Of a stretch of DNA of 64,000 nt, positions 8,343-60,948 are shown piece after piece (within the stretch, counting starts at the first letter, position 1; each line of letters opens with the position of its first letter). Made by a program: the position numbers and the translations under genes. The stretch comes from Isosphaeraceae bacterium (GTDB lineage: Bacteria > Planctomycetota > Planctomycetia > Isosphaerales > Isosphaeraceae), in NCBI GenBank assembly GCA_052146555.1, contig JBKQMU010000083.1, forward strand, positions 39,316 to 103,315, written 5' to 3'. The notes beneath the pieces were generated by a model. It was not told where the DNA came from, did no database searches, and saw nothing but the letters and a program-made list of their open reading frames with translations.

Positions 8343-8371
8343 GGGCTCAGTCGGGAGACTGAGCCCTTTTT
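8343..8371 (+). terminator. Rho-independent terminator
   Basis: GGGCTCAGTC-GGGA-GACTGAGCCC-TTTTT just after the HTH gene. Confidence 0.85.
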
Positions 8372-9452: not shown

Positions 9453-9489
9453 GAAGTTGCGTGTGAGAAAGTGACCATTTTCTCGAATC

Positions 9490-9570
9490 GGGTGGCTGGG
9501 GCGGAGTCGTGGGCGCCCCGGGGCAGCGGCCCCGGTTCTGGTGCATCGCTTGGCTCTGCTTCAGGCACCC
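9490..9570. repeat. REP-like element, family A (degenerate)
   Basis: Starts GGGTGGCTGGGGC and ends CAGGCACCC; between convergent genes. Confidence 0.5.
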
Positions 9571-9619
9571 GGAGATCTGATCACGGCTCGAATTGCGCAA
9601 CGACTCTCCACGCGGCTCC

Positions 9620-9802
9620 TTAACTTCCACTTCCCAGCGTACTGTTCACGCCGCTGAACGTAGCACTGGCGCTCTGACCGAGCGTGGTGAGGATTGTGAT
9701 GCAAGCAACGAGAATCAAGGCCAGCATCACGGCGTACTCAACAGCAGTCGGGCCATCTTCGCTCTGCAGGAATCGGGAGATCGAGGGAAGGAAGCGAGTC
9801 AT
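9620..9802 (-). CDS. flp: Flp family type IVb pilin
   Basis: SEDG|PTAVEYAVMLALI cleavage motif with E at +5, hydrophobic helix, 60 aa. Confidence 0.92.
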   Translation of the reverse strand: MTRFLPSISRFLQSEDGPTAVEYAVMLALILVACITILTTLGQSASATFSGVNSTLGSGS

Positions 9803-9983
9803 GGATTTGTCTCTCAGATGGTCGGATGGAATTGGTCACATGACAGATTCAGACCTGCTCGCCCATCTTACTCCATGCTTGGTAAGCTGGTGACGGAACG
9901 GGCCGAAGAAACGACACATGTTGCCTCGATGCAACGACAGGCCGCGTTGCAAACCAGAGGACACGGAGCCCCGGAATCGTGCC

Positions 9984-10074
9984 GGGTGCCACGCTCGTGT
10001 CCGCGTGAGCATGCGGGGTGAGCTTCGGCTTCAGTAATCAGGGGCACGCTTGCCCCGGTGCAAGCGTGAAACCC
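9984..10074. repeat. REP-like element, family C (GGGTGCCACGCT / CACGCTTGC..GCAAGCGTG)
   Basis: Hairpin at 10045-10068; inverted relative at 15753-15840; partial copies at 22668 and 32905. Confidence 0.6.
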
Positions 10075-10143
10075 AACCTTTTGCCCCAGGCAACCAGAGA
10101 TCTGATCACGGCTCGAATGGCACATCGAATCTCCCTCGGCTCT

Positions 10144-10341
10144 TTAACTTCCGCTTCCCAGCGAGCTGTTCACGGCACTGAACGAAGCACTGCAGCTTTC
10201 ACCGAGCGTGCCCACGATTGTGATGCTGGCAAGGAGAATCAATGCCAACATCACGGCGTACTCAACGGCCGCCGAGCCATCTTCGCTCGAACCATCTTCG
10301 CTCAGCAGGAACCGGCAGATCGAGGGAAGGAGACGAGTCAT
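10144..10341 (-). CDS. flp: Flp family type IVb pilin, paralog 2
   Basis: SEDGSSEDG|SAAVEYAVMLALI; 15-nt internal duplication at 10273-10302. Confidence 0.88.
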   Translation of the reverse strand: MTRLLPSICRFLLSEDGSSEDGSAAVEYAVMLALILLASITIVGTLGESCSASFSAVNSSLGSGS

Positions 10342-10539
10342 GGATTTGTCTCGCAGATGAATTGGTCGGGATTTGATAGATGACAGATTCAGACCTGTCT
10401 GCTCTACTTACTCCATGTTTGGGTAGCTGGTGACGCAGTAGACCGGAAAAGCGACGCGGGTTGCCTCAAGGCAACAACAGGCCGTGTCGCAATCCCGGGG
10501 ACGCGGAGCGCTGGAATCGTGCGTCCCTGGAACGGCGTC

Positions 10540-46164: not shown

Positions 46165-46641
46165 TCAGGCCGAGTTCCGTGGCCTTGGGGGCCTGTCGAT
46201 CCGGGAGGACCGCTGAGAAGGGAGGCAGCAGGAGGAGGTGTCGGACAGCGGTTCGCTGGCCTCTGGTTCCCATCTCAGGAATCCGAGGCCAAGAATTGCG
46301 GCTCGGGCCGAGGGACCCGGCGGCCTCGCACTCGGGACGGCCGGGTCACTGCACGGAGACTCGCCCAGGCACGGGCCAGACTCCGTGCTCTGCTCGCTGG
46401 CGGCTGATCGGGTTGAAGACGCGGGGACACCGCGGCGGGGCGATCTGGACCGGCCGCAGCAGCAGGAGGCCATCCGGCAGCGCTCACCGCAACGACAGAC
46501 CCGGGCATGTTCCTCCGCGTCGAAATGGCCCGCGCTTGGCGCGCCCGCGGCAGCCGCGTTCGCCTGAAAAGCAAGACCGAACACGGCCGCAAGCAGAAAG
46601 CCTGTCGCGAAAAACCTGGGATTGTGCGGCCGTGGAACCAT
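46165..46641 (-). CDS. Cys-rich exported-type small protein ending in RPPR (possible leader/regulatory peptide)
   Basis: Signal-like helix, CRCGERC..SCCC, PC...PC, C-terminal RIDRPPR; upstream of the DUF1559 gene. Confidence 0.6.
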   Translation of the reverse strand: MVPRPHNPRFFATGFLLAAVFGLAFQANAAAAGAPSAGHFDAEEHARVCRCGERCRMASCCCGRSRSPRRGVPASSTRSAASEQSTESGPCLGESPCSDPAVPSARPPGPSARAAILGLGFLRWEPEASEPLSDTSSCCLPSQRSSRIDRPPRPRNSA

Positions 46642-46863
46642 GCTTGAGAAGCCGTCGCAGTCAGGTCGTGGTCGTTCCAGAGAAAACCTGGCACCGAATT
46701 GGAGCGTGCTTTCTGGAGTCCACACCATAATTCGACGCTGCCAGACCTCAGGATATCATCATACCGCTGGGGGCGCACGCCGCAATACGGTTGAAGAGGG
46801 CAGGGGGCTGGTAGTTGTGGGCAGTAAGCGGTGGCCAGGCGGCAATTAACAGAGCCCGAAGCG

Positions 46864-47880
46864 TCAGCGACGGCCACAGTTCGCGAGTGACCACGCAGCG
46901 CGTCGGCTCGGACGCGCGCGCGACAGGTTATGGGGCCCGGCGCAGGTGGCGGCTCGATGACCGCGGGCTGGACTGTAACAGGGCCAGAGAAGATGCGCGA
47001 CGGCCTGGGCCGGATGGGTGGCGATCCGCGCCTCGAGCTGCCGCAGATAGTCGGTCACGGCCTGACCTTGCCCGCCGTCCTCGATTTGGCCTGCGGCCTG
47101 GAGATCGAGCCGGTACCGACCGCCCTTTTGGTGGGTACAAAAGATGTGGTAGACGGGGGCCCGGGTCAAGACGGCAAGCTCGGTCCAGATGGAAAGGAAC
47201 CGATGCTCCACACCCAGCAACCGTCCCGGTTGTGTGTTCGGGCTGACCCAGGGGATGTCGCCGCAGAGATAGACCGCCAGACCATCACGCAGGGCTGCGC
47301 GGGCACGCTGGAGCAGCTCGACCGCCTGCGGTCGCGTCAGGTCGCGTTTCAGGAACATACGAGCCTGGGGATGCGGTCCGGTGGCATCGTCGAACCGTCG
47401 CGTCAAAAGCCTTGAGACATGCCAGGGACGTTGAACCATGGCACGCACAGGCAGCCCCATGCGGTAGAGCCAGTGCAGCCCCTCGATATAAGCCCCCAGG
47501 TGGCTGCCGACGAGAATCACGCCCCGACCGGCCGCCAAGTCGCTCTCGAGCTGTGCTGCTCCCACGACATCGAAGCGGCCCAGAGCTTCGTGATCCCTCG
47601 GGCAGTCCAGGGGATAGTCGCGCGCCAAGGTTCGCAGCGTGCCGGCGGCCAGCGCCGGCCAGAGTTCCTCGACCGGGCCGTCGAGATCCAGCGCCTCCTG
47701 GGCGCGCCTCAGCGCCTGCCGCAGCCGCGCTTTCGCGCCAGGTCGCAGCCCGATGAGCGCTTTGCCCAAAGCGCTTAAGACCGCGTCGCACCGGGCCGGT
47801 CCCAGGCGAGAGAGCAGGGGCAGGAAAAGTCCGTAAAACGCGGACTTCCAGCAGAAGGCCCTGCGCAGAAGCCGGCTCAC
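46864..47880 (-). CDS. LpxL/LABLAT-like (lysophospholipid) acyltransferase
   Basis: GRGVILVGSHLGAYIE (H-x4-E type), AVYLCGD, LAVLTRAPV, ARIATHPAQ; 4-nt overlap with the upstream gene. Confidence 0.8.
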   Translation of the reverse strand: MSRLLRRAFCWKSAFYGLFLPLLSRLGPARCDAVLSALGKALIGLRPGAKARLRQALRRAQEALDLDGPVEELWPALAAGTLRTLARDYPLDCPRDHEALGRFDVVGAAQLESDLAAGRGVILVGSHLGAYIEGLHWLYRMGLPVRAMVQRPWHVSRLLTRRFDDATGPHPQARMFLKRDLTRPQAVELLQRARAALRDGLAVYLCGDIPWVSPNTQPGRLLGVEHRFLSIWTELAVLTRAPVYHIFCTHQKGGRYRLDLQAAGQIEDGGQGQAVTDYLRQLEARIATHPAQAVAHLLWPCYSPARGHRAATCAGPHNLSRARPSRRAAWSLANCGRR

Positions 47881-49634
47881 ATTTCTGCTCCTTGTGCCGT
47901 GGCCATGGTTCCCAGCCGCTGATAATCAATCTTGTCCGTCGACGTCGCCGGCAGGCTCGCCACGAAGGTGATCGTGTCGGGAACCATATATGGGGGCAAA
48001 TACTCAGTGCAATGGCGCTTCAGCGCGATGATCGATCGCTTCTGGTCTGGCTTGAGGGCGACGAACGCGGTGATCGTGACGCCTGCATCATCCGACCGGG
48101 CCACGACCGCGGCGCGGTCGACTCCCGGATGGCGATAGAGAACCGCTTCGATCTCACCCAGCTCGATCCGGTAGCCGCGCTTCTTGACCATCCGGTCGCG
48201 TCGGCCGTGAAAATGGAAGCAGCCATCACCGGAGTCAACGACCAAGTCGCCGGTCCGGTACCACCGGGGCCCTTCGTTGTCGGTGAAGAACGCTTGGGCC
48301 GTGAGCTCGGCCTGGCCGAAGTAGCCGCGCATGACGCCGGGGCCGGCGATCGCGAGCTCTCCCAGCGTGCCGGCGGGAACGTCCCGGCCCTCCTCATCGA
48401 CGACCCTCGCCGACAGCGGAGGGCAGACACTTCCGATCGGGTAGGGCGCTATTCGATCGTCGGGAATGACCGCCGGAATCGACTGCGCCGTGCAGACGTT
48501 AGTCTCCGTCGGGCCGTACAGGTTCCAGAGCCGCGCATCGGGCCAGAGCCGCCGCAACCTGCGCAAGGGGCCGATCGGGAAGACCTCACCGGCGAAGAGC
48601 ACCAGCCGAGGCGCGACGGAGCCCTCGCGGTCCAGGCCGCCGTGCTCGGCCAGCAAGGCGAGAATCGACGGGGCCGAGTACCAAACGCTGATCCGCCTTT
48701 GCGCCAGGAAGTCGCCCAGAAGCGCGGGTTCCTTCGCTAGCCTTTCACCGATCAAGACAAGCGTGACGGCATTGCGGCAGGCAACGTAGAGGTCGAAGAC
48801 AGACAGGTCGAAATGCAGCGGCGCATGCGACGAGAAGCGATCGTCCGAGTTCCACGGACCGAGCGTCTCCTGGCACCAGTCCAGAAACGTAAATGCATTG
48901 GCATGCGAAAGCATGACCCCCTTGGGCTGGCCAGTCGAGCCCGAGGTAAAGAGAATGTAGGCCGGGTCTTCGGGATCGCGGTCAGGGGGCAGGGGAGCGG
49001 GGGCGTCGTCGGCCTCGATCTCCGACCAGAGGGCATCATTGCCGATGGTCGGCCAAAGGGCCGGGTCGTCGTCGCGGGAAGGTTCTGAGGAGGTCGGTGA
49101 GCACTCCGGTTCGTCGACCTTGATCAGCCTGGGCAAAGGGCCAGGGCCCGGCCAAGCCGCGCGGAGGGCAGGGGCCAGCGACGTGCTGACCACGACCGCC
49201 TTGACCCCGCTGGCCGCGAAGATCGTCACCGCGCGCGCAGCCGGCCCGGTGGGATCGACGGGCACGTACGCGGCCCCGCTGCGGAGGATGCCGTGCACGG
49301 CCGTGACGGCCTCCAGGCTCTTGGGCAGCCAGAGCCCGACCCGGTCGCCGCGACCTGCGCCCCAGCGGGCCAGCCGGGTCGCCAACCGGTCGGCACCGTG
49401 CAGAAGCGCTGCGTAGGTGAGGGTCCGGCCGTGCTCGTTCTCGAGGGCCACGTGATCGGGCCGCCGCGCGGCGGCCAATTCCAATAGGTGACCGAGATGA
49501 TGCATTTCCCTGGAGCTTTTCCCGCACTGCGTGCCCTTGGCAGCGGCAGCCGGACCAAGAGGTGGGGCCATCAGCAGTCCCGCCTGGTTCGTAAGTTCCG
49601 TCTGGTTCGTAAGTTCCGCCTGGTTCGTCGTCAT
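47877..49634 (-). CDS. Stand-alone amino-acid adenylation domain protein (DltA/AlmE-like)
   Basis: YILFTSGSTGQPKGV, HFDLSVFD, FAGE, NLYGPTE, YRTGD, GRRD..VKKRGYRIELGEIE, terminal Lys motif; 18-bp NQ(A/T)ELT repeat at the N-terminus. Confidence 0.92.
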   Translation of the reverse strand: MTTNQAELTNQTELTNQAGLLMAPPLGPAAAAKGTQCGKSSREMHHLGHLLELAAARRPDHVALENEHGRTLTYAALLHGADRLATRLARWGAGRGDRVGLWLPKSLEAVTAVHGILRSGAAYVPVDPTGPAARAVTIFAASGVKAVVVSTSLAPALRAAWPGPGPLPRLIKVDEPECSPTSSEPSRDDDPALWPTIGNDALWSEIEADDAPAPLPPDRDPEDPAYILFTSGSTGQPKGVMLSHANAFTFLDWCQETLGPWNSDDRFSSHAPLHFDLSVFDLYVACRNAVTLVLIGERLAKEPALLGDFLAQRRISVWYSAPSILALLAEHGGLDREGSVAPRLVLFAGEVFPIGPLRRLRRLWPDARLWNLYGPTETNVCTAQSIPAVIPDDRIAPYPIGSVCPPLSARVVDEEGRDVPAGTLGELAIAGPGVMRGYFGQAELTAQAFFTDNEGPRWYRTGDLVVDSGDGCFHFHGRRDRMVKKRGYRIELGEIEAVLYRHPGVDRAAVVARSDDAGVTITAFVALKPDQKRSIIALKRHCTEYLPPYMVPDTITFVASLPATSTDKIDYQRLGTMATAQGAEM

Positions 49635-50920
49635 GGCTGCTTCCCTGCGGTATTCACGTATGCAAAATCTGTACCTAGGGCGGTAGGTTTCGTTCCGATC
49701 GTGCCCGCACTTTTGATCGTGCCTGGCAGATCCGGAAAGAGCAACCGATAGAACTGCGCGTCGGCAGCCAGAGATCGGGCCAGTGCCAGAAAGAGGCGGC
49801 GGTGGCCCAGGGAATTGGGATGATCGTCCCAGGCGGCGATCTCAAGGCTCGCCGGGTCATAACGATCGAAGGTATCGCTTAAGTCGAAGACCGGCAGGGC
49901 CTGGCGACAGGCAATCGCCTTCAAGCGGGCGACCGGCTCGGCCCGGGCCAGGGGCGCGTCGGCCTTGCCGACCCGGGGAATGATCACGATCAAAAGCGGC
50001 ACGCCTGCGGCACGGCACTCTCCGGCGATGGCGCCCAGGGTGGCGTCGTAGAGCTCCCAGTAGCACGCTTTGAGTCTGGCCTTGATCAGCTCTTTGTGAA
50101 CCAGGCGGCCCTCGGCGTCGACCCGCAGCTCCTCCGGTCCGATTCCCGCGCGGGCCACCGTGCTTTTCAAGAACTCGTCGGTCGGCACGACCCCCTCTCG
50201 AAACACGTCGCAGAGGTGAATTTCCATCAGCCGCTGGTCCAGCATGGTCGCCGAGTACAGCACCAGGTCGGGGTGGAAGGCCATGGCCTTGCGGCGCAGG
50301 GTCTCGAGCCGCTGCAGCGGGCTGTAGGCCGCGACGGCGAAGTTGAGGACCTCAAACCGGCGCTTGGGCCCATAGCCAAGGCGTCGGGCGTGATCGCAGA
50401 GCCACTCCCCGAGCTGATGGCTATAGGTTTGCTCATAGGTGACGCCCCAGCCCATGTCCATCGAGGCACCGAGGACCGCGATCCGGAAGGTCCCCTTGGG
50501 CTTCTCGAGTGTGATCTCGGCCGAGTGCATCCCGTGCGAGTTGGTCACAAACGGCTGGCCGAAGAGGGTCTGGCGGATGTTCGGCAAAAGCTCGAACTGG
50601 AGGAAGTCGCCAGTCAGCCGGCGCGAGACCTTCGCGTCGTTGAACCGGACCCAGCCGTTGGGCTTGCCCAAAAGCCGTAGCGCCAGCTCGCCGCGCGCGC
50701 CTTCGGGACCCTCGCCGCCGCCGATGAGCCCCTCGTAGTAACCCGCGGCATGAATCTCGCGCTCGGCCCTATTGAGCTCGGGAGATCGGGCCGACGCGAT
50801 CACCGAGCGGAGGACTGGCCATCGCTCGGGCCAGGGGATGACGGCCACCGCCAGCAGCAAGAGGCTGCCGACGAGTGTGATCCGGGCCGACTGAACCGAG
50901 GTCGCCTGCGAGGTCGCCAT
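49631..50920 (-). CDS. SGNH/GDSL-fold protein (AlgJ/DltD-like) with N-terminal membrane anchor
   Basis: RIAVLGASMDMG, EVLNFAV, WDDHPN (D-x-H). Confidence 0.78.
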   Translation of the reverse strand: MATSQATSVQSARITLVGSLLLLAVAVIPWPERWPVLRSVIASARSPELNRAEREIHAAGYYEGLIGGGEGPEGARGELALRLLGKPNGWVRFNDAKVSRRLTGDFLQFELLPNIRQTLFGQPFVTNSHGMHSAEITLEKPKGTFRIAVLGASMDMGWGVTYEQTYSHQLGEWLCDHARRLGYGPKRRFEVLNFAVAAYSPLQRLETLRRKAMAFHPDLVLYSATMLDQRLMEIHLCDVFREGVVPTDEFLKSTVARAGIGPEELRVDAEGRLVHKELIKARLKACYWELYDATLGAIAGECRAAGVPLLIVIIPRVGKADAPLARAEPVARLKAIACRQALPVFDLSDTFDRYDPASLEIAAWDDHPNSLGHRRLFLALARSLAADAQFYRLLFPDLPGTIKSAGTIGTKPTALGTDFAYVNTAGKQP

Positions 50921-50938
50921 CGCGCCAGTGCTCCTCTG

Positions 50939-52558
50939 TCAGACTCCGCAGAGACCGCGGTGCAAGAGGCCAAACCACGACGAAAGGCTGGGGCTCGACC
51001 AGAGCGACCAGAGCAGGGCGATGGTCGTGAAGGTCGCCGCCGTCTTGAGCCCGCGAACCAAGAGCGGCCGTATCTGTAAGGCGCCGGCCGCCGGCTGCGG
51101 CTTGATCCGCCGGGCTCCGCGAGTACGGCTGCCCTTACGGCTGCCGCGGGCATCGAGCTGCACGTTCACGAGAACCAGCACCCCCAGCACGCCCCAGAAG
51201 AGCGCGTCTGGCAGCGAGAGCCCCCACGAGCCCCGCAGCCAGAACGACTGGTACGCGTGCAAGAGCCAGGTGGCCAGGAAGACGGCCAACGTGCCGGCCG
51301 CCAGGGCCGCCGGCTGCGGCCATCGCTTGAGCCGGAAAACGACCGGATTGAAGAAGAGCCGGACCATGAAGTCCTTCCAGTAGATGTTGATTCTGCGCCA
51401 GTAGTCGGTAAACCCGGTCGCCAGCAAGTAGCGGAGATGCGTCTCGGGAAGCTGGTAACCGAAGAGGTGCAGCATGCCGCAGGCCATGTGGAACTGCCCA
51501 GAGACGCGCAGGTAGAGCAGGTAATTGCAGACGAGATAGCCGGCCAAGCTCGACGCGCCGTGCACCTGCTCGGGCGTGATCAGAAGCTCGTGATAGACCA
51601 GTCGGTAGGCGATCAAGTGAAGCGTGCCGCGGAAGATCATCGCCAACCCCCGCCGCTGGATGGCGTGAACGTCGAGGGCGAAATAGCCGCGCTGCATCGT
51701 CCGGTAGTCGACGACCGGAAAATGCATGAAGCAGAAGTTCGGCAGCAGCAAGAAATATCCGGCGCCGTCCCAGAGCGTCTCGGGCCCTTTCGCATGCTTG
51801 ATTTCATACATATAAATCATCATGCGGAACATGAACATGCTGGCAAGGACCGGCCAGACGTTCACGGGTACCGACGAGAAGACGGCCTGGCTGCGCGCGG
51901 CGGCCAGCCCCGCGGCCAGGGCAGCCAGGAGAATGGCCCGGGCGGTCCACGAAAGGGGTAGGAAGCAGACCGACAGAAGGACCGCGGAGAGCCCCAGGAC
52001 GATCGTGGCCGCGAGCGTGCCGAAAACCCAGAAGAGTCCCGCGATCGACACGGCCAGAAACAGCGGCTTCTTCCAGCGGTAGGGAGCCAGATAGTGAACC
52101 GGCAGCGCCAGGAGTGCCAGGTTCGCGAGGCTGAGGAAAGCCCGGCCTTCGATCTGGTACCGCTTGAAGACGATGCACAAGAGACCGAGGCAGGCAAAGG
52201 ACCGCGCGAAGGGAATGAGCCGACGGCGGCAGGTCTCGGGCTCTCCGGGGTAAAGGCCCCAGTCGCGAGAGCCGCCAGGCGCGCTGCCCGCTTCCTGATG
52301 CGCGCGCAGCACGAACCGGCGGTGCGGCGCTTGCCGCGACTTCACCGTCTTTCCGACGTCTACCCCCATGAAGTGGTCCCTTCTCGGCTCCTCTCTTCGT
52401 GCCGCGTCAGCCAGGCAAAGACCAGGCGAACCGCTTCTCCGCGCCGGCTCGAACGAGCGGGCGATATTTGGTGGCTCGAACCAAAGGCGGCGGATGGTCG
52501 CAAGGACAGCGCCGGGAATGACGGGATCGCCGGAAGTGGGTGCCCCCTGCATCGGCAA
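50939..52558 (-). CDS. MBOAT family O-acyltransferase (DltB/AlgI-like); start uncertain
   Basis: LRVSGQFH, FTDYWRRINIYWKDFM, FLATWLLH; many TM helices. Confidence 0.85.
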   Translation of the reverse strand: MPMQGAPTSGDPVIPGAVLATIRRLWFEPPNIARSFEPARRSGSPGLCLADAARREEPRRDHFMGVDVGKTVKSRQAPHRRFVLRAHQEAGSAPGGSRDWGLYPGEPETCRRRLIPFARSFACLGLLCIVFKRYQIEGRAFLSLANLALLALPVHYLAPYRWKKPLFLAVSIAGLFWVFGTLAATIVLGLSAVLLSVCFLPLSWTARAILLAALAAGLAAARSQAVFSSVPVNVWPVLASMFMFRMMIYMYEIKHAKGPETLWDGAGYFLLLPNFCFMHFPVVDYRTMQRGYFALDVHAIQRRGLAMIFRGTLHLIAYRLVYHELLITPEQVHGASSLAGYLVCNYLLYLRVSGQFHMACGMLHLFGYQLPETHLRYLLATGFTDYWRRINIYWKDFMVRLFFNPVVFRLKRWPQPAALAAGTLAVFLATWLLHAYQSFWLRGSWGLSLPDALFWGVLGVLVLVNVQLDARGSRKGSRTRGARRIKPQPAAGALQIRPLLVRGLKTAATFTTIALLWSLWSSPSLSSWFGLLHRGLCGV

Positions 52559-53151
52559 GAGGGCGGGGACCAGCTCGTCCCTGAACTGGCGACCCCCGCT
52601 ACGGCCGCATCATCCCTGATACGCCTGTTAGCTCCGTGGAGGTCCCTGGATCCTGGAACCCCAGGTTCATGCTTCGGTAAAAATTTTTGGGTTGTGACCG
52701 GTGGGAAGGGCGTAAGAGCGGTTGTCGCTCCGTCGACACCGAGCCTCCGGTTCCTTGTGGGCTCGCTGTGCCGGGGTCTCCTTCCCATGGCAACGGCGAT
52801 TTAACCGAGAGCATCCGGGGCTGTCAACCCGACCGATCCGCGAAAGCCCCATTTTCATGCCCGGGTCTCCCCGGCCGCGGACCGATGCCACTCCGCTAAC
52901 CCTTTTCTTCGCAAGGAGCTTGCAACTCCTTTCGATTTTTTCCCTGGGCGAGCGGTCCACAAGGGGCGTGTGGGAACGACCCAGGCGGCGATCGCGCAAC
53001 GAGACAGCCCCGGTCCTCCAGGGCCGCGCACAAGCGCGTCTCGACTTGGTACAATCATGTCTCGACCTGGCTTGCTCTTCATGGTACCGTGGCCTGCTTA
53101 CAAGTTTCCGACCGGTCGGATCGGGCGGCCCGGCACTGATTCTGCAAGACG

Positions 53152-56100
53152 ATGGCCGATTCTGAATCCAAAGATCTAACCACGGTCCTTACCTCCCGCA
53201 GTCAGGCGCCTGTGCTGGCCTTGGTATTGATGCTGGCGGCGACGGCCGGTGCGCTGAATCTTGCGCAGGTCCCCCCCGCCGCGTCGCCCGCGCCCGGTCC
53301 CACGGCCCCCGCCGCGAATCCTTCTGCCCCAAGTGTCCCCCCATCGCCCGCAGCCGTCAGTCAGGATGCCCTTGAGGCGCTGGAACCGCTCTACCGTTTT
53401 CTCAACGTGGACCGCGTTCCGCGCTCGCTCGAGGAGCTAAGCGGGCTGCTCGAGGGATATCACGTCACGACTTTGATCGCCACGATTTCCGATCCCAAGG
53501 AATCGCGCCTGAGCTACGATTTCGACATGGGGCTAGAGGCCATCCAGCGGGCCATTGAGTCACAGGGCTACACGCTGGACCGGTTCCGGCTTCCCTGGTT
53601 GGAGGGGGACGCTGGCGGGCCGACCTCGGGCACCTCGGCGGCCGGAACGAGCTCCGCCGCCACGCTCGTGCGAGGGCGTCACCAGCGGCAGCCCGGCACC
53701 ATCCTCTTCCGGATCGATCGCAGTCCGCCTGCGGCCGGGCGGCCGGCCGCTGCGCAGGAGCTCTTGCTCCTCTTGATCGTCGGCGAGACGCCCACCTGGG
53801 GCATCCAGCAAGAAGCCTTCAAAACCAGCCTCGACATTGCCTGGACGATTGATTTCCAACGAAATTCAGGTGATGCGACGGGGAGCACGGCGATCAAGAT
53901 CGTGGCGCCGACGTTCTCGGGCTCGGGCGACTCGCTGGCGCGCACGCTCCGCACCTGGACGTCCAGCCAGGCCCAGCGCGCTAGCGCGCGGTTCTGGGTT
54001 TGCACAGGCGCAGCCACGGCCATCGACAAGCCTTGGTTCGAGAACAATGCGCGGCCGGCCCAGGTCATCTACGCCGCCACCGTGATTCCCGACGAGCTTC
54101 TCCTGCGTGCTTTGTACCGGTTCCTTGCTCGCCCGGCCGGCCGCCTCGATCCCTCGTCTCCGCTGCTGCCGAAAGGCAAGATCGCCTTGCTAGTGGAGGG
54201 AGGGTCCGGTTACGGGTCCGCAGTGGGGAACACTTACGGGACCAGCGGCACTTCGGATGAATCCAGAAGCATCATCTCCATCCCGTTTCCGTCCCAGATC
54301 GCTCAGGTTCGAGCCAGTACCTCGGCGGCCGATGCCACGGGCGGGTCGGCCAAGAATCGTCAAACGATTCCCTTCGATGCACCCCCCGGCCGCCAGAGCG
54401 ACAGCCTGCCGGCTCTCGCGCCCCGGATGACGGTCGCCACTGACAGTCTGATCCTCTCAAACATCTTGACGACGATCTCCAGCGAAGATATTCGCTACGT
54501 TGGCATCGTGGCGACCGACATCCTCGACGTGATCTACCTGACCCGGCTCATCCGCGAGAACTGCCCGGACGTGCAGATCATCCTGGTGGGCAACGACCTG
54601 CGTTATACCGACCCGCGCTTCACGCTCGATTTCCGGGGCACGGTCATCGCCTCGTCCTACCCGCTGGATGCGCGCGCCCAGATCTGGTCGTACCCCTTCC
54701 ACGGGGCGATCGAGCGCAGGCTCTTTGCCAACGAGTTCGACGTGGGCCGGTACAACGCCGCGCTCGTCCTGCTCAACGGCGTGCCCGATCCCAATCGAGC
54801 GGGACGGCTGGTCGTCGACGCGAGCCGGGCCGAAGACTTCCTGGTTTACGGCAAACCATTTTCAGCTACGACCTTCGATTCGGTCAATCGCCGCCCGCAA
54901 GTCTGGATCAACGAGGTCGGCCAGTTCAACGTCTGGCCTCTGAAGGTCCGCTCCCTGAGCAACTATGATCCCGCGCTGCGGGCCAAGGCCGAGGCCCTCA
55001 TCCCGCCCATCGAGAGCCTTAATCCTCAGGCCGAGTCGACTGATCGCCTTAGATTCTCGTATGACTATCCGCTTTTCTGGAAGATGATTTTCGCCGCCGG
55101 GACGTTCGTGACGCTCTTGCTGGTGGGGCTGGTGCTTTATACCAACTGGCGCCGCGCCGGTGCCGATCGAGGGCGATCAAGCTGGTTCGACCCCTTGCTG
55201 AGCCGGTTCGACTTGACCTACCCCGGCCGCTCAGGCAAGAGCCTATTGTTGATCACCCTCCTGGTCGTTGCCCTGGCGATTCCCTACAGCCTGCTGGCGA
55301 CGCCATTGGATATCGCCTTGCCGCCGGCGGTCACGGCCGAGGGCGAGCGGGACGCGACTCTCGTCGTGAGCTGGGATGTCTACGCGCTCTGCGGCACGGG
55401 CGTCTTCACCCTGGTCTCGCTTCTGCTTCCTCTGGGCATTTGCTTACGCGAGGTCTTTCGCAGCGGCCGGCGGTCGCGGCGCCGCGACCGCAGTCCGGCG
55501 GAGGACTTGCCGCTGGACCCCTGGCTGGTCGCCGAGGACATGACCCTCCGCGCGATGGTGGTCCTGACCGCGGCGACGGGCATCGCCTGTATCGTCTGGC
55601 GGCTTTACCAGTTCGCACTCTTGCGGCCGTCATTGCCCAACGACTGGCTGGCGCTGGATCGAAGTGCGCATTTGCTGGGCGGAATCTCGCCGATCATGCC
55701 GGTCTCCTGCCTCGGCGCAGCCATCTTCTGGTGGGCGTATCTCGAGCTCAAGAGAATGAATTCTTATCCCCTGCTGCGGCGGGGCACGGACTTGATCTGC
55801 GAAACCGGCATTGGCGGACTCGAATGCTCGACCTCGGACTCGACTTCACCCTCACCCTCGCCCTCGCCCTGGCACCCTCACCTTTGCCGGCTCAACGCCC
55901 GCTTTCGTCTCTGCGTCGATCTGCTCGAGTATCCGGTGACCGTCCTGCTCTCGAAGAACCTGCCCTTAGGCGGGCTCGTGGCCTTGGCCTTCCTGGGTCT
56001 GGTCGTGTTTGTCTGGGGGGTGGTCTGGCCTCGCTACATCCCCACGCCGGAAGGGAGCTGGTTCGACGTCCTGATCGTGGTTTCGCTTCTGGGCTATCTC

Positions 56101-56991
56101 TTGCTGCTACTCTACTCCCAGGTGCGCTATCTTTGGCTCGGCAGATCGCTCTTGCAACTCTTTCGGCAGCTTTCCCTGCTGCCGATGGACAGAACGTTCG
56201 ACCGCATCCCGCCGCGAGTTGTCGCGCGGTTCGGCCGGTTCCTGCGGACCTCGCTGCAGGACGACATCGACCTGGAGATTCCGCTGCAGCAGTGCCGCCT
56301 GGTTCTGGGACAGGGCGATTGTTCGGGGGCCGGCCGGCCCCCAATCCTAAAGACAGTCCACGCCACACTCGACGAGGTCGGTCCCCACACCGAGCAAGAG
56401 TTCTTCGAACTCGTATCAACGGCATGTGCCGCTCCGGTGATCGAGCGGGCCTGGCCCTGCCGCACCCTCGACCAGGCGTATGGTGGCGCGGCTGCTGCCG
56501 AGGCTCCGAAGCAGGACACAACTGCGACGCCGGATGGAAGCACTCCAGGCGAAACCGACCCGAGCGCCCCCTCCGGAGCGTGGCTGAACCTGGCCGAGGA
56601 ATTGATGGCGGTGCGGATCGTGTATCTCGTCAGCCAGTTCGCCGGCCCGCTGCGGAGCATGTCGGCTCAGCTCATCTACGGGCCAATCCTGCTGCTTCTG
56701 GCTGTGGCCTGGTATCCCTTCCACCCGATGTGGCTGATGTCGATCGTGATCTGGGTGTTCATCGGTGTAGGAGTCCTGGCGACCTTGGTGCTCTTGATTC
56801 AGATCGAGCGCAACGACTTCGTCAGCCGGGTCGCCCGTACCGCGCCCAATGCGCTGAAGCTTGATCAGACGTTTATATCCAACCTGTTGCCCTACGCCGT
56901 GCCCGCGGCTGGCTTCCTCCTCACCGCGTTTCCCTCGCTGAGCTACTGGATGGGCACGCTGCTGGAACCCATCGGCCGGGCGGTGAGGTGA
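53152..56991 (+). CDS. Large hypothetical membrane protein (exported alpha/beta region plus about 10 TM helices)
   Basis: Signal-like segment, about 600-aa globular region, then repeated hydrophobic segments; no family recognised with certainty. Confidence 0.8.
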   Translation: MADSESKDLTTVLTSRSQAPVLALVLMLAATAGALNLAQVPPAASPAPGPTAPAANPSAPSVPPSPAAVSQDALEALEPLYRFLNVDRVPRSLEELSGLLEGYHVTTLIATISDPKESRLSYDFDMGLEAIQRAIESQGYTLDRFRLPWLEGDAGGPTSGTSAAGTSSAATLVRGRHQRQPGTILFRIDRSPPAAGRPAAAQELLLLLIVGETPTWGIQQEAFKTSLDIAWTIDFQRNSGDATGSTAIKIVAPTFSGSGDSLARTLRTWTSSQAQRASARFWVCTGAATAIDKPWFENNARPAQVIYAATVIPDELLLRALYRFLARPAGRLDPSSPLLPKGKIALLVEGGSGYGSAVGNTYGTSGTSDESRSIISIPFPSQIAQVRASTSAADATGGSAKNRQTIPFDAPPGRQSDSLPALAPRMTVATDSLILSNILTTISSEDIRYVGIVATDILDVIYLTRLIRENCPDVQIILVGNDLRYTDPRFTLDFRGTVIASSYPLDARAQIWSYPFHGAIERRLFANEFDVGRYNAALVLLNGVPDPNRAGRLVVDASRAEDFLVYGKPFSATTFDSVNRRPQVWINEVGQFNVWPLKVRSLSNYDPALRAKAEALIPPIESLNPQAESTDRLRFSYDYPLFWKMIFAAGTFVTLLLVGLVLYTNWRRAGADRGRSSWFDPLLSRFDLTYPGRSGKSLLLITLLVVALAIPYSLLATPLDIALPPAVTAEGERDATLVVSWDVYALCGTGVFTLVSLLLPLGICLREVFRSGRRSRRRDRSPAEDLPLDPWLVAEDMTLRAMVVLTAATGIACIVWRLYQFALLRPSLPNDWLALDRSAHLLGGISPIMPVSCLGAAIFWWAYLELKRMNSYPLLRRGTDLICETGIGGLECSTSDSTSPSPSPSPWHPHLCRLNARFRLCVDLLEYPVTVLLSKNLPLGGLVALAFLGLVVFVWGVVWPRYIPTPEGSWFDVLIVVSLLGYLLLLLYSQVRYLWLGRSLLQLFRQLSLLPMDRTFDRIPPRVVARFGRFLRTSLQDDIDLEIPLQQCRLVLGQGDCSGAGRPPILKTVHATLDEVGPHTEQEFFELVSTACAAPVIERAWPCRTLDQAYGGAAAAEAPKQDTTATPDGSTPGETDPSAPSGAWLNLAEELMAVRIVYLVSQFAGPLRSMSAQLIYGPILLLLAVAWYPFHPMWLMSIVIWVFIGVGVLATLVLLIQIERNDFVSRVARTAPNALKLDQTFISNLLPYAVPAAGFLLTAFPSLSYWMGTLLEPIGRAVR

Positions 56992-58995: not shown

Positions 58996-60948
58996 ATGAA
59001 CTGGCCAGGGATGGCGTCGCCGAGACAGTACGTCCGGCGCTCTTGGCCCGAGCTGCTGCTGTGCCTTTTTGCAGCGTGTATTTTTCTGGGATCGTTGGGT
59101 TCACCGGAGCTCTGGGGCAAGCGCGAGCAGCGGGCTGCGGCCGAGGCACTGGACACGGTTCAGAACGGACGCTGGCTGGTCGCACAGATTCAGGGTCGCC
59201 CGCGGCTCGAGAAACCACCTCTGCCCCGCTGGGCTGCTGCTGTGCTTCTGCGTCTCAGCGGTCGCCGGGACGAGTGGGTCGTCCGCCTTCCTGGTACGGT
59301 TTCGGGCCTGGCAACGGTGATGGTGGTCTACCTCCTGGGGGCCCGGATCGGCGGCCGGTCGCTGGCAATTACGTCTGCCATGGCACTGTGCACAACGGGG
59401 CTGTTCATCGCGGAGCTCCGGCAGGCGGGCAACGACGGACCACTCGGCTGCTTCACCAGCCTGGCCCTTCTGGCCGCCTGGTGCCGCATCCACTCTACTA
59501 GGACTCTAGAACACCCGAGCTTCGGTAGCCCTGGCGTTGACACTAACCGCTGCAAAGGCCCTCGGGCCTGGGTGTTGCTCTTTTATGGTGCGCTGGGTCT
59601 GGGGTTCTTGTGCAAAGGGCCGATCATCTTGGCCCTCGTCGCCTGGTCGGTCGTTCCTTACCTGGCCTGCACCCACCGGTTGAAGTCAGGCCTACGCGCG
59701 CTGATCGATCCTGCCGGGCTACTGCTCTTTTTCGGGCTGGCCGCATGCTGGCCGATCCCGGTCCTGGTCGACGACCCAGGAGCGCTGGGCGTCTGGATCA
59801 CGGAGATGGGTCAAAAGACGGGAATGCTGCCAATTGCCCATCGGAACCGCGCCTCGCTCGAGCTGGTGCTGCCAGCACTTGCGTTGCCATGGCCGGTGGC
59901 AGGGCTCTCAGGCCTGCTTCTGCCCTTCTTTCACCGCCGCTTGCGACGGCACTCGTGGGTTCCCGGCTCAGTCTGGTTCCCTTGGTGGTGGGTCGTCGGA
60001 AATCTGGCCATGTTCCACACATGGGCCGTGGCGAAAGCCAACTACCTGGTGCCCTGCATGCCGGGACAGGCCCTCCTCATTGGCATGGCCTGGATTCATT
60101 TGAGCCGTGCCGCTCATGACCGGTGCCGAGGGGGACGGGGGGTTCTCGCGCGTGGCGCGATTCTACTTCAATGGCTCATTGTGTTGCTTTGCGGCATCAG
60201 CGTGGCCCTACTTGGCCACGTGTCGCTGGAGTCGGCTCCCCGTCCGGCGCTGGCGCTTTTGGTGGCAGCGGCGAGCTGCGGCGTTGCCGCTGGTTTCTGG
60301 ATATGGCAGCGCGGTTCCTGGGTGCTCTCGCTCTTGCCCGTCACGGCCGCCTGCGCCGTTGGCGTGATTGTTGGCTACGGGTTCGTTGCACCCTGCGACA
60401 ACCTCGCCCGGGGCCACCGGCAACTAGCCGGGCAGCTCGAAAGCCTCCTTCCCCCCGAGACGGAAACCGTCCACTTTTTCCACGAGATTGACGAAGGGCT
60501 ATGGTTTTACCTCCGCCAGCATCGCCTGGCTCCTGTGCCGGGAAGCCAGGCCCTGTACAGCAACAGCCACGACAGACTGTCGGACTTGATCGGCAGCGGA
60601 TCTACCCTGGGCCTTCATCCGCAGCCGTCTGCTACCCTCTTAAGCCAGCAGAAACCGGTCCTCCTCGACTGGCTTCGTCACGGGGAGGACGCGGGAGAAT
60701 ACCTCCTCATGCGCGCAACTCTCTATGATCGAATGGCTTCGGAGCTTACCGGACTTGTCAGTCCGCTCTACCGCGAACCCCAGCGGAAACGAAATAGCTT
60801 GGTTCTGCTCCAACGGCACCCCGCTACTTCAGTCCCTCCCTCTGCCGCCCGTCTGGCCGGCTTACGCATTGCCTGTCCTCGGGTGAACACATTGCCTGTC
60901 CTCGCACCCCCCGCACCCCCTGGCCTCGCATCCCCCGGCACCCCCTGA
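58996..60948 (+). CDS. ArnT-family (GT39) glycosyltransferase
   Basis: EQRAAAEAL...W, RLEKPPL, VVRLP, AGND, GFLCKGP, YLVPC; many TMs. The last about 27 codons lie in the repeat region. Confidence 0.88.
   Translation: MNWPGMASPRQYVRRSWPELLLCLFAACIFLGSLGSPELWGKREQRAAAEALDTVQNGRWLVAQIQGRPRLEKPPLPRWAAAVLLRLSGRRDEWVVRLPGTVSGLATVMVVYLLGARIGGRSLAITSAMALCTTGLFIAELRQAGNDGPLGCFTSLALLAAWCRIHSTRTLEHPSFGSPGVDTNRCKGPRAWVLLFYGALGLGFLCKGPIILALVAWSVVPYLACTHRLKSGLRALIDPAGLLLFFGLAACWPIPVLVDDPGALGVWITEMGQKTGMLPIAHRNRASLELVLPALALPWPVAGLSGLLLPFFHRRLRRHSWVPGSVWFPWWWVVGNLAMFHTWAVAKANYLVPCMPGQALLIGMAWIHLSRAAHDRCRGGRGVLARGAILLQWLIVLLCGISVALLGHVSLESAPRPALALLVAAASCGVAAGFWIWQRGSWVLSLLPVTAACAVGVIVGYGFVAPCDNLARGHRQLAGQLESLLPPETETVHFFHEIDEGLWFYLRQHRLAPVPGSQALYSNSHDRLSDLIGSGSTLGLHPQPSATLLSQQKPVLLDWLRHGEDAGEYLLMRATLYDRMASELTGLVSPLYREPQRKRNSLVLLQRHPATSVPPSAARLAGLRIACPRVNTLPVLAPPAPPGLASPGTP

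What the first reader, a model, noticed from the sequence alone, without database searches (positions are those of the whole stretch)
46864..52558. Hybrid envelope aminoacylation operon: MBOAT + SGNH + adenylation enzyme + LpxL-like transferase
Seen: four same-strand genes, the last three coupled by 4-nt overlaps; no carrier protein was recognised in the window. Established: an A-domain plus LABLAT transferase is the AlmE/AlmG lipid A glycylation logic; MBOAT plus SGNH is the DltB/DltD and AlgI/AlgJ trans-membrane acylation logic. Inference: one activated amino acid (or acyl group) is delivered both to a cytoplasmic-face lipid and across the membrane to a glycan, or via a lipid intermediate. 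I do not recognise this combination as a characterised pathway.
Basis: partly seen in the sequence, partly recalled or inferred. Interest (0 to 1): 0.7.

Follow-up and report, generated by a model that had tools for sequence, protein, structure and literature searches.

The report
Proline-fed envelope acylation operon, LpxL-like add-on
This planctomycete operon most likely loads proline onto a carrier protein encoded elsewhere in the genome, probably oxidises it towards a pyrrole acid, and passes it through a DltB-like membrane enzyme onto a cell-surface sugar polymer. I found no paper describing such a surface modification, and this bacterial family adds a lipid-A-type acyltransferase to the operon.

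Summary
Four minus-strand genes (MBOAT-like, SGNH, adenylation enzyme, LABLAT acyltransferase) lie at 46864-52366. The last three are coupled by ATGA and GTGA overlaps, and no carrier protein gene is in the window. The order is kept in 53 of 60 Isosphaeraceae loci that hold the A gene.

The A-domain is not DltA- or AlmE-like. Its binding pocket matches the L-prolyl-carrier-protein ligase PltF at 8 of 9 positions. The genome carries, on other contigs, one PltL/Bmp1-type carrier protein and one AnaB/Bmp3-type prolyl-carrier dehydrogenase.

In other planctomycete families and other phyla these genes sit in one cassette with a fused MBOAT-SGNH protein. Some cassettes add a PltA-type pyrrole halogenase, and several lie among glycan synthesis genes.

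The MBOAT-like protein gets no Pfam or PDB sequence hit, but its model folds like DltB and keeps the catalytic His.

Best reading: a Dlt-like, carrier-dependent transfer of a proline-derived (probably pyrrole-2-carboxyl) group to an extracytoplasmic glycan. The LABLAT gene, the MBOAT/SGNH split and the scattered carrier and dehydrogenase genes are Isosphaeraceae features. What LABLAT does, and what the acceptor is, remain inferred.

The parts
50939..52366 (-). MBOAT-fold membrane acyltransferase, DltB-like (about 475 aa; the ORF is open up to a TTG at 52558). Predicted to take the acyl group from the carrier protein across the inner membrane.
   Evidence: No Pfam or PDB sequence hit. The AlphaFold model has pLDDT 87 and pTM 0.84. 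Best Foldseek matches are DltB 8jem_A (E 2e-8, TM 0.56/0.63) and 6bug_C, then HHAT, PORCN and LPCAT3. H370 aligns with the canonical 'LWHG' His and N327 with the 'WRRWH' His of AlgI-like MBOATs. The family holds 624 clusters at E<=1e-30, and nearly all members are fused to an SGNH domain.
49631..50920 (-). Membrane-anchored SGNH/GDSL transferase or esterase. It has an N-terminal transmembrane helix and a predicted periplasmic catalytic domain. It is the split-off equivalent of the C-terminal domain of the fused MBOAT-SGNH proteins.
   Evidence: PF13472 23.6 bits, below the cut-off. The Ser (GAS), Gly, Asn and D-x-H-P blocks are invariant in 24 relatives, fused ones included. The model has pLDDT 81, and its fold matches are generic SGNH enzymes (CgnD, TesA, Axe2), not specifically DltD or AlgX.
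47877..49634 (-). Stand-alone adenylation enzyme, predicted to be an L-proline--[carrier protein] ligase (PltF-like). It has no carrier domain of its own.
   Evidence: TIGR01733 368.9 bits, above the cut-off; the DltA models score below theirs. The best single-domain PDB hit is 6o6e_B, L-proline--[L-prolyl-carrier protein] ligase, at 329 bits against 218 for DltA. The pocket region scores 137 bits over 141 residues, and the specificity residues are D-L-F-(Y/S)-L-A-L-V-C against D-L-L-(Y/S)-L-A-L-V-C in PltF. The code is kept in 51 of 61 orthologues, and 5 are identical to PltF. It is the only such A-domain in the genome; the next best is 27% identical.
46864..47880 (-). LABLAT-family (LpxL/LpxM/PatA-type) acyltransferase. 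Its start overlaps the A-domain stop by 4 nt. It is found in this position in Isosphaeraceae only.
   Evidence: PF03279 34.9 bits against a cut-off of 22.3. The profile's nearest solved relatives are PatA 5f2t (E 2e-6) and LpxM 5knk (0.04). H127 is invariant and aligns with the PatA catalytic His. The +5 position of the HX4D/E motif is hydrophobic in all 23 sequences aligned, and D208 (GDIPW) is invariant. About 436 orthologues were found. It is absent from the cassettes of other lineages.
52367..53151 (.). Divergent intergenic region between the operon and the 1279-aa membrane protein gene; presumed promoter region.
   Evidence: ORF map. The sigma-70 pattern scan found nothing meaningful here.
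58996..60948 (+). PMT_2/PMT-family GT-C glycosyltransferase (ArnT/PMT-like). A possible partner that builds or modifies the acceptor on the periplasmic side. The link is weak.
   Evidence: PF13231 49 bits. An orthologue lies divergently upstream of the operon in 30 of 80 Isosphaeraceae loci. A PMT_2 gene also sits inside a complete cassette in the unrelated locus L158. Caveat: synteny in this family also extends to flagellar genes and xseA.
53152..56991 (+). 1279-aa polytopic membrane protein without any family match, transcribed divergently from the operon. Probably not part of the system.
   Evidence: No Pfam or NCBIfam hit. Found next to the operon in only 6 related loci: L002 and L047, L049, L051 and L068, at 52-66% identity, and not in A. 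giovannonii.

Best explanation
The operon is the Isosphaeraceae form of a carrier-protein-dependent envelope acylation pathway that works like Dlt but carries a proline-derived acyl group.

Steps:
1. The A-domain (47877-49634) activates L-proline and loads it on a free-standing 84-aa carrier protein encoded on another contig (G000 C169:17783-18037). The proline specificity is shown by homology and the specificity code. The pairing with this carrier is inferred from orthology.
2. An AnaB/Bmp3/PltE-type flavoprotein encoded on a third contig (C306:2326-3489) oxidises prolyl-S-carrier to a pyrroline- or pyrrole-2-carboxyl thioester. The enzyme family is shown. How far the oxidation goes is inferred from sister clusters that add a PltA-type pyrrolyl-carrier halogenase.
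3. The DltB-like MBOAT protein (50939-52366) takes the acyl group from the carrier at the cytoplasmic face and moves it across the membrane (inferred from fold and from the conserved His and Asn).
4. The membrane-anchored SGNH protein (49631-50920) delivers the acyl group to an extracytoplasmic acceptor, most likely a glycan (inferred from gene context in other lineages).
5. The LABLAT enzyme (46864-47880), translationally coupled to the A-domain, is an addition specific to this family. It may use the same acyl-carrier donor on a cytoplasmic-face lipid, as AlmG does, or it may acylate the lipid-linked acceptor. This step is the least certain.
For: Proline triad:
- A-domain: the best single-domain solved relative is the L-prolyl-carrier ligase 6o6e_B, at 329 bits against 218 for DltA.
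- The pocket is identical to PltF at 8 of 9 compared positions. The ninth residue (F239) occurs in another prolyl ligase, 7thn_B.
- The code is conserved in 51 of 61 orthologues, and 5 are identical to PltF.
- Carrier: one orthologue in the genome, 51-65% identical to the in-cluster carriers of sister lineages. Among its best solved relatives are the Bmp1 carrier domain and PltL, which rank ahead of DltC.
- Dehydrogenase: one orthologue, 41-54% identical to the in-cluster ones. Its best solved relative is the prolyl-ACP dehydrogenase 4irn at 388 bits, followed by 6cxt_B and 5zw0.
- A, carrier and dehydrogenase are each the only gene of their type in the genome.

Link to MBOAT/SGNH:
- The genes share an operon with 4-nt overlaps.
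- Seven planctomycete loci outside Isosphaeraceae, and four of six loci looked up from other sources, carry MBOAT-SGNH + carrier + A + dehydrogenase side by side.
- PltA-like halogenases follow in L034 and L036; halogenase-family genes also follow in L158 and L161.

MBOAT: fold and catalytic His.

SGNH: catalytic blocks conserved.

Glycan target:
- Cassettes or fusion genes lie among GT2, GT4, Wzx, Wzy, sulfotransferase and sugar-nucleotide genes.
- In Isosphaeraceae the orphan carrier gene lies head-to-head with a Wza-like Poly_export gene in 18 of 30 loci.
Against: - Nothing here is biochemical. No product, acceptor or phenotype is known.
- The carrier and the dehydrogenase are unlinked in this genome, so their pairing with the operon rests on orthology and single-copy status.
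- Two of six fused relatives looked up have no carrier, A-domain or dehydrogenase gene within 8 kb. Some Isosphaeraceae have a second MBOAT+SGNH pair without an A gene. The MBOAT family may therefore not always use this donor.
- The SGNH fold matches are generic, so it could be a hydrolase that releases the acid rather than a transferase.
- The extent of oxidation (2 or 4 electrons) cannot be told from sequence; the best hit, AnaB, stops at the pyrroline as I recall. This genome has no halogenase.
- LABLAT lacks the acidic residue of the HX4D/E motif, and its donor is unknown.
Confidence: 0.62

Rival explanations
1. One activated acyl group on one carrier protein is delivered to two acceptors. 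LABLAT puts it on a cytoplasmic-face lipid such as lipid A, as AlmG does with glycine. MBOAT/SGNH puts it on a periplasmic glycan.
For: The LABLAT start overlaps the A-domain stop by 4 nt. It follows the A gene in 53 of 60 loci. It is a separate orthogroup from the genome's other LABLAT, which sits beside LptF/G. Its non-canonical active-site motif suggests a non-standard donor. From my own knowledge, AlmG is a LABLAT that uses glycyl-carrier protein. This model is compatible with the best explanation and is nested within it.
Against: The cassette works without LABLAT in every other lineage examined. Nothing shows that LABLAT binds the carrier protein. An ordinary fatty-acyl donor fits the data equally well.
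Confidence: 0.25
2. A secretion-coupled natural-product route. The proline-to-pyrrole cassette makes a small-molecule acid or ester. MBOAT carries it across the membrane and SGNH acts as an esterase that releases it, or puts it on a small acceptor, rather than decorating a polymer.
For: The triad, and the halogenase and methyltransferase in some lineages, are typical secondary-metabolite enzymes. The best SGNH fold matches include the thioesterase TesA and the crocagin biosynthesis protein CgnD. An ABC-2 exporter follows the cassette in L035.
Against: No condensation, ketosynthase or other assembly enzyme accompanies the triad in any cassette seen. The characterised bacterial MBOAT+SGNH pairs I know of (Dlt, Alg, Pat, Wss) acylate polymers. 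Glycosyltransferase, flippase and polymerase neighbours recur. The system is nearly universal in a whole family: the carrier gene is present in 117 of 121 genomes, which is unusual for a secondary metabolite.
Confidence: 0.12
3. Two unrelated modules share an operon by chance of synteny. MBOAT+SGNH would be an ordinary acetyl-CoA-dependent O-acetyltransferase pair (AlgI/AlgJ or PatA/PatB type). A-domain+LABLAT would be a separate lipid aminoacylation module.
For: JGI names many homologues AlgI. Some genomes have MBOAT+SGNH pairs without an A gene.
Against: The SGNH and A genes overlap by ATGA. In other lineages the fused MBOAT-SGNH gene sits directly beside carrier, A and dehydrogenase genes with no LABLAT present. 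The family is well separated from canonical AlgI, with no PF03062 hit and 20-22% identity. DltB, the carrier-dependent MBOAT, is the best fold match.
Confidence: 0.06
4. A true Dlt system that D-alanylates an envelope polymer.
For: The DltA NCBIfam models match at about 270 bits. DltB is the best fold match. DltC is among the carrier protein's hits.
Against: The DltA scores are far below the curated cut-offs of 476-560 bits. The pocket code is PltF-like, not DltA-like. A prolyl-carrier dehydrogenase is a conserved partner. The SGNH protein does not match DltD specifically.
Confidence: 0.02

Closest known systems
Dlt pathway of Firmicutes (DltA, DltC, DltB, DltD, DltX): D-alanylation of teichoic acids
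   Same: The same logic: a stand-alone adenylation enzyme loads a small carrier protein, an MBOAT-fold membrane protein accepts the acyl group from the carrier, and a membrane-anchored SGNH-type protein finishes the transfer outside the cytoplasm. DltB is the best structural match of the MBOAT-like protein.
   Different: The cargo is proline-derived, not D-alanine. A flavin dehydrogenase modifies the cargo on the carrier. The MBOAT gets no PF03062 hit and is usually fused to its SGNH partner. The SGNH protein is not a recognisable DltD. The host is a diderm planctomycete without teichoic acids. The carrier gene is unlinked here. DltX was not looked for.
Thiotemplated proline-to-pyrrole triads: PltF/PltL/PltE (pyoluteorin), Bmp4/Bmp1/Bmp3, PigI/PigG/PigA, and AnaC/AnaD/AnaB (anatoxin-a, which stops at the pyrroline)
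   Same: The A-domain, carrier and dehydrogenase each have these proteins among their best solved relatives. The specificity code is nearly identical to PltF. Sister clusters add a PltA-type halogenase.
   Different: There is no downstream PKS, NRPS or condensation enzyme. The pyrrolyl carrier is instead paired with a membrane MBOAT/SGNH transferase. In this genome the three genes lie on three different contigs.
AlmE/AlmF/AlmG glycine modification of lipid A in Vibrio cholerae (from my own knowledge)
   Same: An adenylation enzyme is translationally coupled to a LABLAT-family transferase, and a small carrier protein is the presumed donor.
   Different: The A-domain code is for proline, not glycine. 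The carrier is not in the operon. LABLAT is only distantly related to any solved member, PatA at E 2e-6. No evidence points to a lipid A acceptor. AlmG itself was not compared.
AlgI/AlgJ/AlgF/AlgX, PatA/PatB and WssH/WssI O-acetylation systems
   Same: An MBOAT plus an SGNH-type partner acting on an exported glycan. Polysaccharide genes are frequent neighbours of the family.
   Different: Those systems use an acetyl donor and need no adenylation enzyme or carrier protein. Canonical AlgI-like proteins of planctomycetes are only 20-22% identical.
Fused MBOAT-SGNH + carrier + A-domain + acyl-CoA-dehydrogenase cassette noted elsewhere in this scan (unpublished AI notes)
   Same: The same protein families and the same predicted chemistry. 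My own look-ups confirm the cassette in seven planctomycete loci and four other loci.
   Different: Here the MBOAT and SGNH parts are separate genes, the carrier and dehydrogenase genes have left the cluster, and a LABLAT gene has joined it.

Membership tests
MBOAT superfamily | Multi-helix MBOAT fold | tested here: met
   The model has pLDDT 87. The top 26 Foldseek matches are all MBOATs: DltB, HHAT, PORCN, LPCAT3, DGAT1, MBOAT7 and ACAT.
MBOAT superfamily | Invariant catalytic His, plus Asn/Asp/His about 40 residues upstream | tested here: met
   H370 is invariant and aligns with the 'LWHG' His of canonical AlgI-like proteins. N327 aligns with their 'WRRWH' His. That these correspond to DltB H336 and H289 is my recollection and was not tested.
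MBOAT superfamily | Match to Pfam MBOAT models (PF03062 / PF13813) | tested here: not met
   No family matched even at E<=10. No PDB sequence hit, even with a profile. This is a divergent subfamily.
Dlt D-alanylation system | DltA: D-alanine-specific carrier protein ligase | tested here: not met
   TIGR01734 scores 269.9 bits against a cut-off of 559.85. The pocket matches PltF, not DltA.
Dlt D-alanylation system | DltC carrier protein encoded with the system | tested here: not met
   There is no carrier gene in the window. The trans candidate resembles the Bmp1 carrier domain and PltL more than DltC.
Dlt D-alanylation system | DltD-type extracytoplasmic partner | tested here: inconclusive
   The protein has an SGNH fold with an intact triad and a membrane anchor. 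No DltD chain is among the top 50 fold matches.
Thiotemplated pyrrole triad (PltF/PltL/PltE type) | Proline-specific stand-alone A-domain | tested here: met
   6o6e_B scores 329 bits. The code is identical to PltF at 8 of 9 positions, and at 9 of 9 in three sister clusters. This is prediction only; there is no assay.
Thiotemplated pyrrole triad (PltF/PltL/PltE type) | Dedicated carrier protein with a Ser attachment site | tested here: met
   C169:17783-18037 encodes an 84-aa protein with the GGILDS motif. PF00550 scores 19.6 bits, just under the cut-off. PltL and the Bmp1 carrier domain are among its best hits.
Thiotemplated pyrrole triad (PltF/PltL/PltE type) | Acyl-CoA-dehydrogenase-type prolyl-carrier oxidase | tested here: met
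   For C306:2326-3489, the best PDB hits are the prolyl-ACP dehydrogenase 4irn at 388 bits and 5zw0 at 297 bits. Whether it performs a two- or four-electron oxidation cannot be tested with these tools.
Thiotemplated pyrrole triad (PltF/PltL/PltE type) | The three genes are clustered | tested here: not met
   They lie on three different contigs in this genome. They are clustered in sister lineages.
LABLAT (LpxL/LpxM/PatA/AlmG) | Match to PF03279 above the gathering score | tested here: met
   34.9 bits against 22.3. Nearly all listed orthologues (118 of 120) carry PF03279.
LABLAT (LpxL/LpxM/PatA/AlmG) | HX4(D/E) catalytic motif | tested here: not met
   H127 is invariant and aligns with the PatA His. 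The +5 residue is Ile or Leu in all 23 sequences. D208 is invariant elsewhere in the protein. Activity is therefore plausible but the motif is non-canonical.
AlmEFG lipid A glycylation | Aminoacyl-carrier protein as LABLAT donor and lipid A as acceptor | not testable with these tools
   This needs enzyme assays or lipid A mass spectrometry.
AlgI/AlgJ-type O-acetylation | Carrier-independent acetyl donor; AlgI-type MBOAT | tested here: not met
   No PF03062 hit. The MBOAT is operon- and cassette-linked to an A-domain and a carrier protein.

The most novel reading that the evidence does not exclude
Isosphaeraceae would carry two hitherto unknown envelope modifications fed by one thiotemplated donor. 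The first is ester-linked pyrrole-2-carboxyl (or dehydroprolyl) groups on an exported or periplasmic glycan, placed by the split DltB-like MBOAT and its SGNH partner. The second is the same group placed on lipid A or another membrane glycolipid by the non-canonical LABLAT, acting like AlmG. The syntenic ArnT/PMT-like GT-C enzyme would supply the sugar that is acylated.
Probability: 0.2. Interest if true: 0.85.

Novelty: new variant of a known kind. Interest (0 to 1): 0.68.

Why it matters
If the reading is right, a building block known only from antibiotics and pigments (carrier-bound pyrrole-2-carboxylate made from proline) is also used to decorate the cell envelope. It would travel by a Dlt-like route in diderm bacteria, which have no teichoic acids. 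That would be a new class of surface chemistry: aromatic, UV-absorbing and halogenated in some lineages. It would be relevant to biofilm matrix properties, phage and antimicrobial-peptide resistance, and the unusual planctomycete envelope.

The MBOAT family behind it holds 624 clusters at 50% identity and is invisible to Pfam, so it is currently annotated as hypothetical or mis-named AlgI.

The Isosphaeraceae variant is useful in three ways:
- It separates the MBOAT and SGNH activities into two proteins that can be studied one at a time.
- It adds a LABLAT enzyme that may extend the AlmG precedent (a lipid A-type acyltransferase with a non-fatty-acyl donor).
- It occurs in cultured strains (Singulisphaera, Aquisphaera, Paludisphaera, Tautonia, Tundrisphaera), so the prediction can be tested directly by mass spectrometry.

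Tried and rejected
1. Pfam, NCBIfam and PDB sequence searches of the MBOAT-like protein, alone or as a 12-sequence profile, returned nothing. Membership was settled by structure prediction and by weak tblastn bridges to canonical AlgI-like genes.

2. I first thought the family had lost the catalytic His, because it has WRRIN where canonical proteins have WRRWH. I rejected this. The alignment shows that the invariant His is H370 (the 'LWHG' position), and that the WRRWH position carries Asn. As I recall, many eukaryotic MBOATs also carry Asn there.

3. D-alanylation or glycylation was rejected on the specificity code and the curated cut-offs.

4. I looked for a carrier protein inside the operon or in small ORFs of the window and found none. 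It is on contig C169.

5. I looked for a PltA-type halogenase or the O-methyltransferase in this genome and found none. I therefore do not propose a halogenated cargo here.

6. The promoter and terminator pattern scan was uninformative: counts were near shuffle expectation.

7. Four literature searches for any description of the combination found nothing relevant.

8. The SGNH fold search was meant to separate DltD-like from AlgX/PatB-like. It gave only generic SGNH matches.

11. The 1279-aa divergent neighbour was considered as a component and set aside. It is conserved only in close relatives.

Full report
**1. What is in the sequence**

Four genes lie head to tail on the minus strand.

- MBOAT-like gene: the ORF is open from a TTG at 52558. 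Its relatives are about 475 aa and cover 88% of it, so the ATG at 52366 is the likely start. The gene ends at 50939.
- SGNH gene: 49631-50920.
- Adenylation enzyme gene: 47877-49634.
- LABLAT gene: 46864-47880.

Reading the junctions shows an 18-nt spacer with GAGGAG before the SGNH gene. An ATGA overlap joins SGNH and the A gene, and a GTGA overlap joins the A gene and LABLAT. None of the genome's 11 PP-binding matches is on the window's contig.

The window belongs to an Isosphaeraceae (Planctomycetota) assembly of 365 contigs.

**2. Conservation**

The same four genes in the same order occur in Aquisphaera giovannonii and in a second complete genome. A scan of one genome per species found 579 relatives of the MBOAT-like protein. 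The best 80 are all Isosphaeraceae: Singulisphaera, Aquisphaera, Paludisphaera, Tautonia, Tundrisphaera and many MAGs.

In 60 of these loci the A gene follows, and in 53 LABLAT follows the A gene. Most of the exceptions end at a contig edge. Many genera have a second SGNH paralogue between MBOAT and SGNH, and some genomes have a second MBOAT+SGNH pair without A or LABLAT.

**3. The MBOAT-like protein**

Pfam, NCBIfam and PDB sequence searches find nothing, even with a profile. Weak tblastn matches to canonical AlgI-like genes of other planctomycetes gave a bridge.

In the joint alignment the family's invariant H370 sits on the canonical 'LWHG' His. Its N327 sits on the His of the canonical 'WRRWH' motif. 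From memory, these are the DltB H336 and H289 positions, and many eukaryotic MBOATs have Asn or Asp at the second position. The enzyme therefore looks active. H293 and H310 are further conserved residues: invariant within the family, and nearly invariant once the two canonical AlgI-like proteins are added.

A 39-sequence alignment gave a confident model (pLDDT 87, pTM 0.84). Its best structural matches are DltB (8jem, 6bug), followed only by other MBOATs.

An exhaustive search of 1.84 billion cluster representatives finds 624 relatives at E<=1e-30. Nearly all are 820-980 aa, that is, fused to an SGNH domain. The separate 475-aa form collapses into essentially one cluster. The split is thus a derived Isosphaeraceae state.

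**4. The SGNH protein**

It has an N-terminal hydrophobic helix. The Ser, Gly, Asn and Asp-x-His blocks are invariant in 24 relatives, including the fused domains. Its model (pLDDT 81) matches generic SGNH enzymes such as CgnD, TesA and the carbohydrate esterase Axe2. It does not match DltD, AlgX or PatB in particular.

**5. The A-domain and its missing partners**

The A-domain passes the curated amino-acid-adenylation model (368.9 bits against 317.4) and fails the DltA models. Among solved single-domain enzymes the best match is the L-proline--[L-prolyl-carrier protein] ligase 6o6e_B, at 329 bits against 218 for DltA.

Over the 141-residue pocket region the match is 137 bits. I placed the specificity-conferring residues by the FDxS, PS, AGE and NxYGPTE landmarks. 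Here they read D-L-F-(Y/S)-L-A-L-V-C; in PltF they read D-L-L-(Y/S)-L-A-L-V-C. A second prolyl ligase (7thn_B) has the same Phe. The code is kept in 51 of 61 orthologues, and five, including three sister clusters, are identical to PltF.

Other planctomycete families hold the key to the carrier. Seven loci there carry four genes side by side:
- a fused or adjacent MBOAT-SGNH;
- an 85-aa ORF with a GILDS motif;
- the A gene;
- an acyl-CoA-dehydrogenase-like gene.

None of these loci has a LABLAT gene.

The window's own genome has exactly one orthologue of that carrier, at C169:17783-18037, 51-65% identical. Among its best solved relatives are the Bmp1 carrier domain and PltL, which rank ahead of DltC.

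The genome also has exactly one orthologue of the dehydrogenase, at C306:2326-3489, 41-54% identical; the next paralogue is 32% identical. Its best solved relative is the prolyl-ACP dehydrogenase 4irn at 388 bits. Next come 6cxt_B, whose companion chain 6cxt_A is among the carrier's best hits (I recall this entry as Bmp3 with the Bmp1 carrier domain), and the L-prolyl-PCP dehydrogenase 5zw0. The operon's A-domain is the only PltF-like one in the genome.

In two sister loci the dehydrogenase is followed by an O-methyltransferase and a flavin halogenase. For L034 the halogenase's best solved relative is PltA, the pyrrolyl-carrier halogenase, at 397 bits. This argues that in those lineages the oxidation runs to the pyrrole. 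This genome has no such halogenase.

**6. Reach beyond the phylum and the likely acceptor**

Fused relatives carry NCBI names from Rhodocaloribacter, Chloroflexi, Anaerolineales and Candidatus Eiseniibacteriota. I looked up six contexts.

- Four carry the small ORF, the A gene and the dehydrogenase next to the fusion gene. Two of these also have a halogenase, and one has a GT1 and a PMT_2 glycosyltransferase inside the cassette.
- Two show only the fusion gene, embedded in glycan clusters: Wzy, GT2, GT4, sulfotransferases and a heparinase-like gene in one, and a GT2 gene with sulfatases in the other.

In planctomycete locus L037 the cassette is flanked by GT4, GT2 and a Wzx-type flippase.

In Isosphaeraceae the orphan carrier gene is present in 117 of 121 genomes. 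It lies head to head with a Wza-like Poly_export/SLBB gene in 18 of 30 loci from several genera. A PMT_2 (ArnT/PMT-like) GT-C gene is syntenic with the operon in 30 of 80 loci and sits at 58996-60948 in this window. Family-wide synteny also includes flagellar genes and xseA, so this last link is weak.

Together these contexts point to an extracytoplasmic glycan as acceptor. None of this is proof.

**7. LABLAT**

The protein passes PF03279. Its profile finds PatA (E 2e-6) and LpxM (0.04) as nearest solved relatives. H127 is invariant and aligns with the PatA catalytic His. The residue five positions on, acidic in the HX4D/E motif, is Ile or Leu in all 23 aligned sequences. D208 is invariant.

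The orthogroup is small, about 436 proteins, and the listed members that carry a source name are all labelled Isosphaeraceae. It is distinct from the genome's other LABLAT, which sits with LptF/LptG and fatty-acid-type genes on contig C320.

LABLAT is therefore a lineage-specific recruit, tightly coupled to the A gene. Its donor and acceptor cannot be read from sequence. The AlmG precedent makes use of the acyl-carrier protein plausible. An ordinary fatty-acyl transfer to the acceptor lipid is the alternative.

**8. Verdict**

- The cargo is proline-derived and probably oxidised on the carrier.
- The conserved unit is MBOAT-SGNH + carrier + A + dehydrogenase.
- LABLAT is an add-on whose role is open.

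Earlier unpublished notes of this scan describe the same cassette in other genomes. I read them after reaching the same conclusion (note) and treat them as agreement, not as evidence. Four literature searches found no description.

The phylum-wide co-occurrence test and the transcript evidence are therefore missing.

Noticed in passing
L155 (G000 C320:68000-86000), roughly 2173-12468: A second LABLAT gene (31% identical to the operon's) sits with two LptF/LptG permease genes, a class I/II aminotransferase, a ketoacyl synthase, a small PP-binding protein, a PlsC-type acyltransferase and an APH-type kinase. It looks like a lipid A or amino-lipid/sphingolipid-like synthesis locus.
   Followed up: partly
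L043 9784-11017 (G000 C169:17783-19016): The orphan PltL-type carrier protein gene lies head to head with a Wza-like Poly_export/SLBB gene. The pairing is kept in 18 of 30 Isosphaeraceae loci from several genera.
   Followed up: yes
window 53152-56991 (+): A 1279-aa protein with a long N-terminal soluble part and many predicted membrane helices has no Pfam or NCBIfam match. It is conserved next to the operon only in close relatives, at 52-66% identity.
   Followed up: partly
L045-L124, e.g. L055 9438-11845: Most Isosphaeraceae genera have two SGNH paralogues between the MBOAT and A genes (about 30% and 55% identical to the window's single SGNH). Several genomes have an extra MBOAT+SGNH pair without A or LABLAT. 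In L122 a carrier gene lies next to such an extra MBOAT copy.
   Followed up: no
L035 228-8138: Directly upstream of a full cassette, and in the same direction, lies a LysW/LysX-type amino-acid biosynthesis set: aconitase-like large and small subunits, an isopropylmalate-dehydrogenase-like gene, an ATP-grasp LysX, a semialdehyde dehydrogenase, an amino-acid kinase, a class III aminotransferase and an M20 peptidase. It may supply a precursor, or the adjacency may be chance.
   Followed up: no
L158 3528-14985: A cassette from an unnamed assembly is interleaved with a GT1 gene, a PMT_2 GT-C gene and an extra SGNH gene, and has a carbamoyltransferase upstream. This is the clearest case of glycosyltransferases inside the cassette.
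   Followed up: no
L156 (Rhodocaloribacter litoris CP076718.1:1005565-1024168): The fused MBOAT-SGNH gene sits in a probable sulfated-polysaccharide cluster (Wzy, GT2, GT4, three sulfotransferases, a heparinase II/III-like gene). No carrier, A or dehydrogenase gene lies within 8 kb. Either the donor module is in trans there too, or this member uses another donor.
   Followed up: no
L034 4628-7072 (+): Next to a halogenase-bearing cassette lies an 814-aa protein that combines B12-binding, radical SAM and Asp/Asn beta-hydroxylase domains, an unusual fusion.
   Followed up: no
window 46165-46728 (-): A 187-aa ORF downstream of LABLAT is rich in Cys, Arg and Pro, has a signal-like helix and has no family match. 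It may be a real small secreted protein or a GC-rich artefact ORF. Another first-stage note covers it.
   Followed up: no
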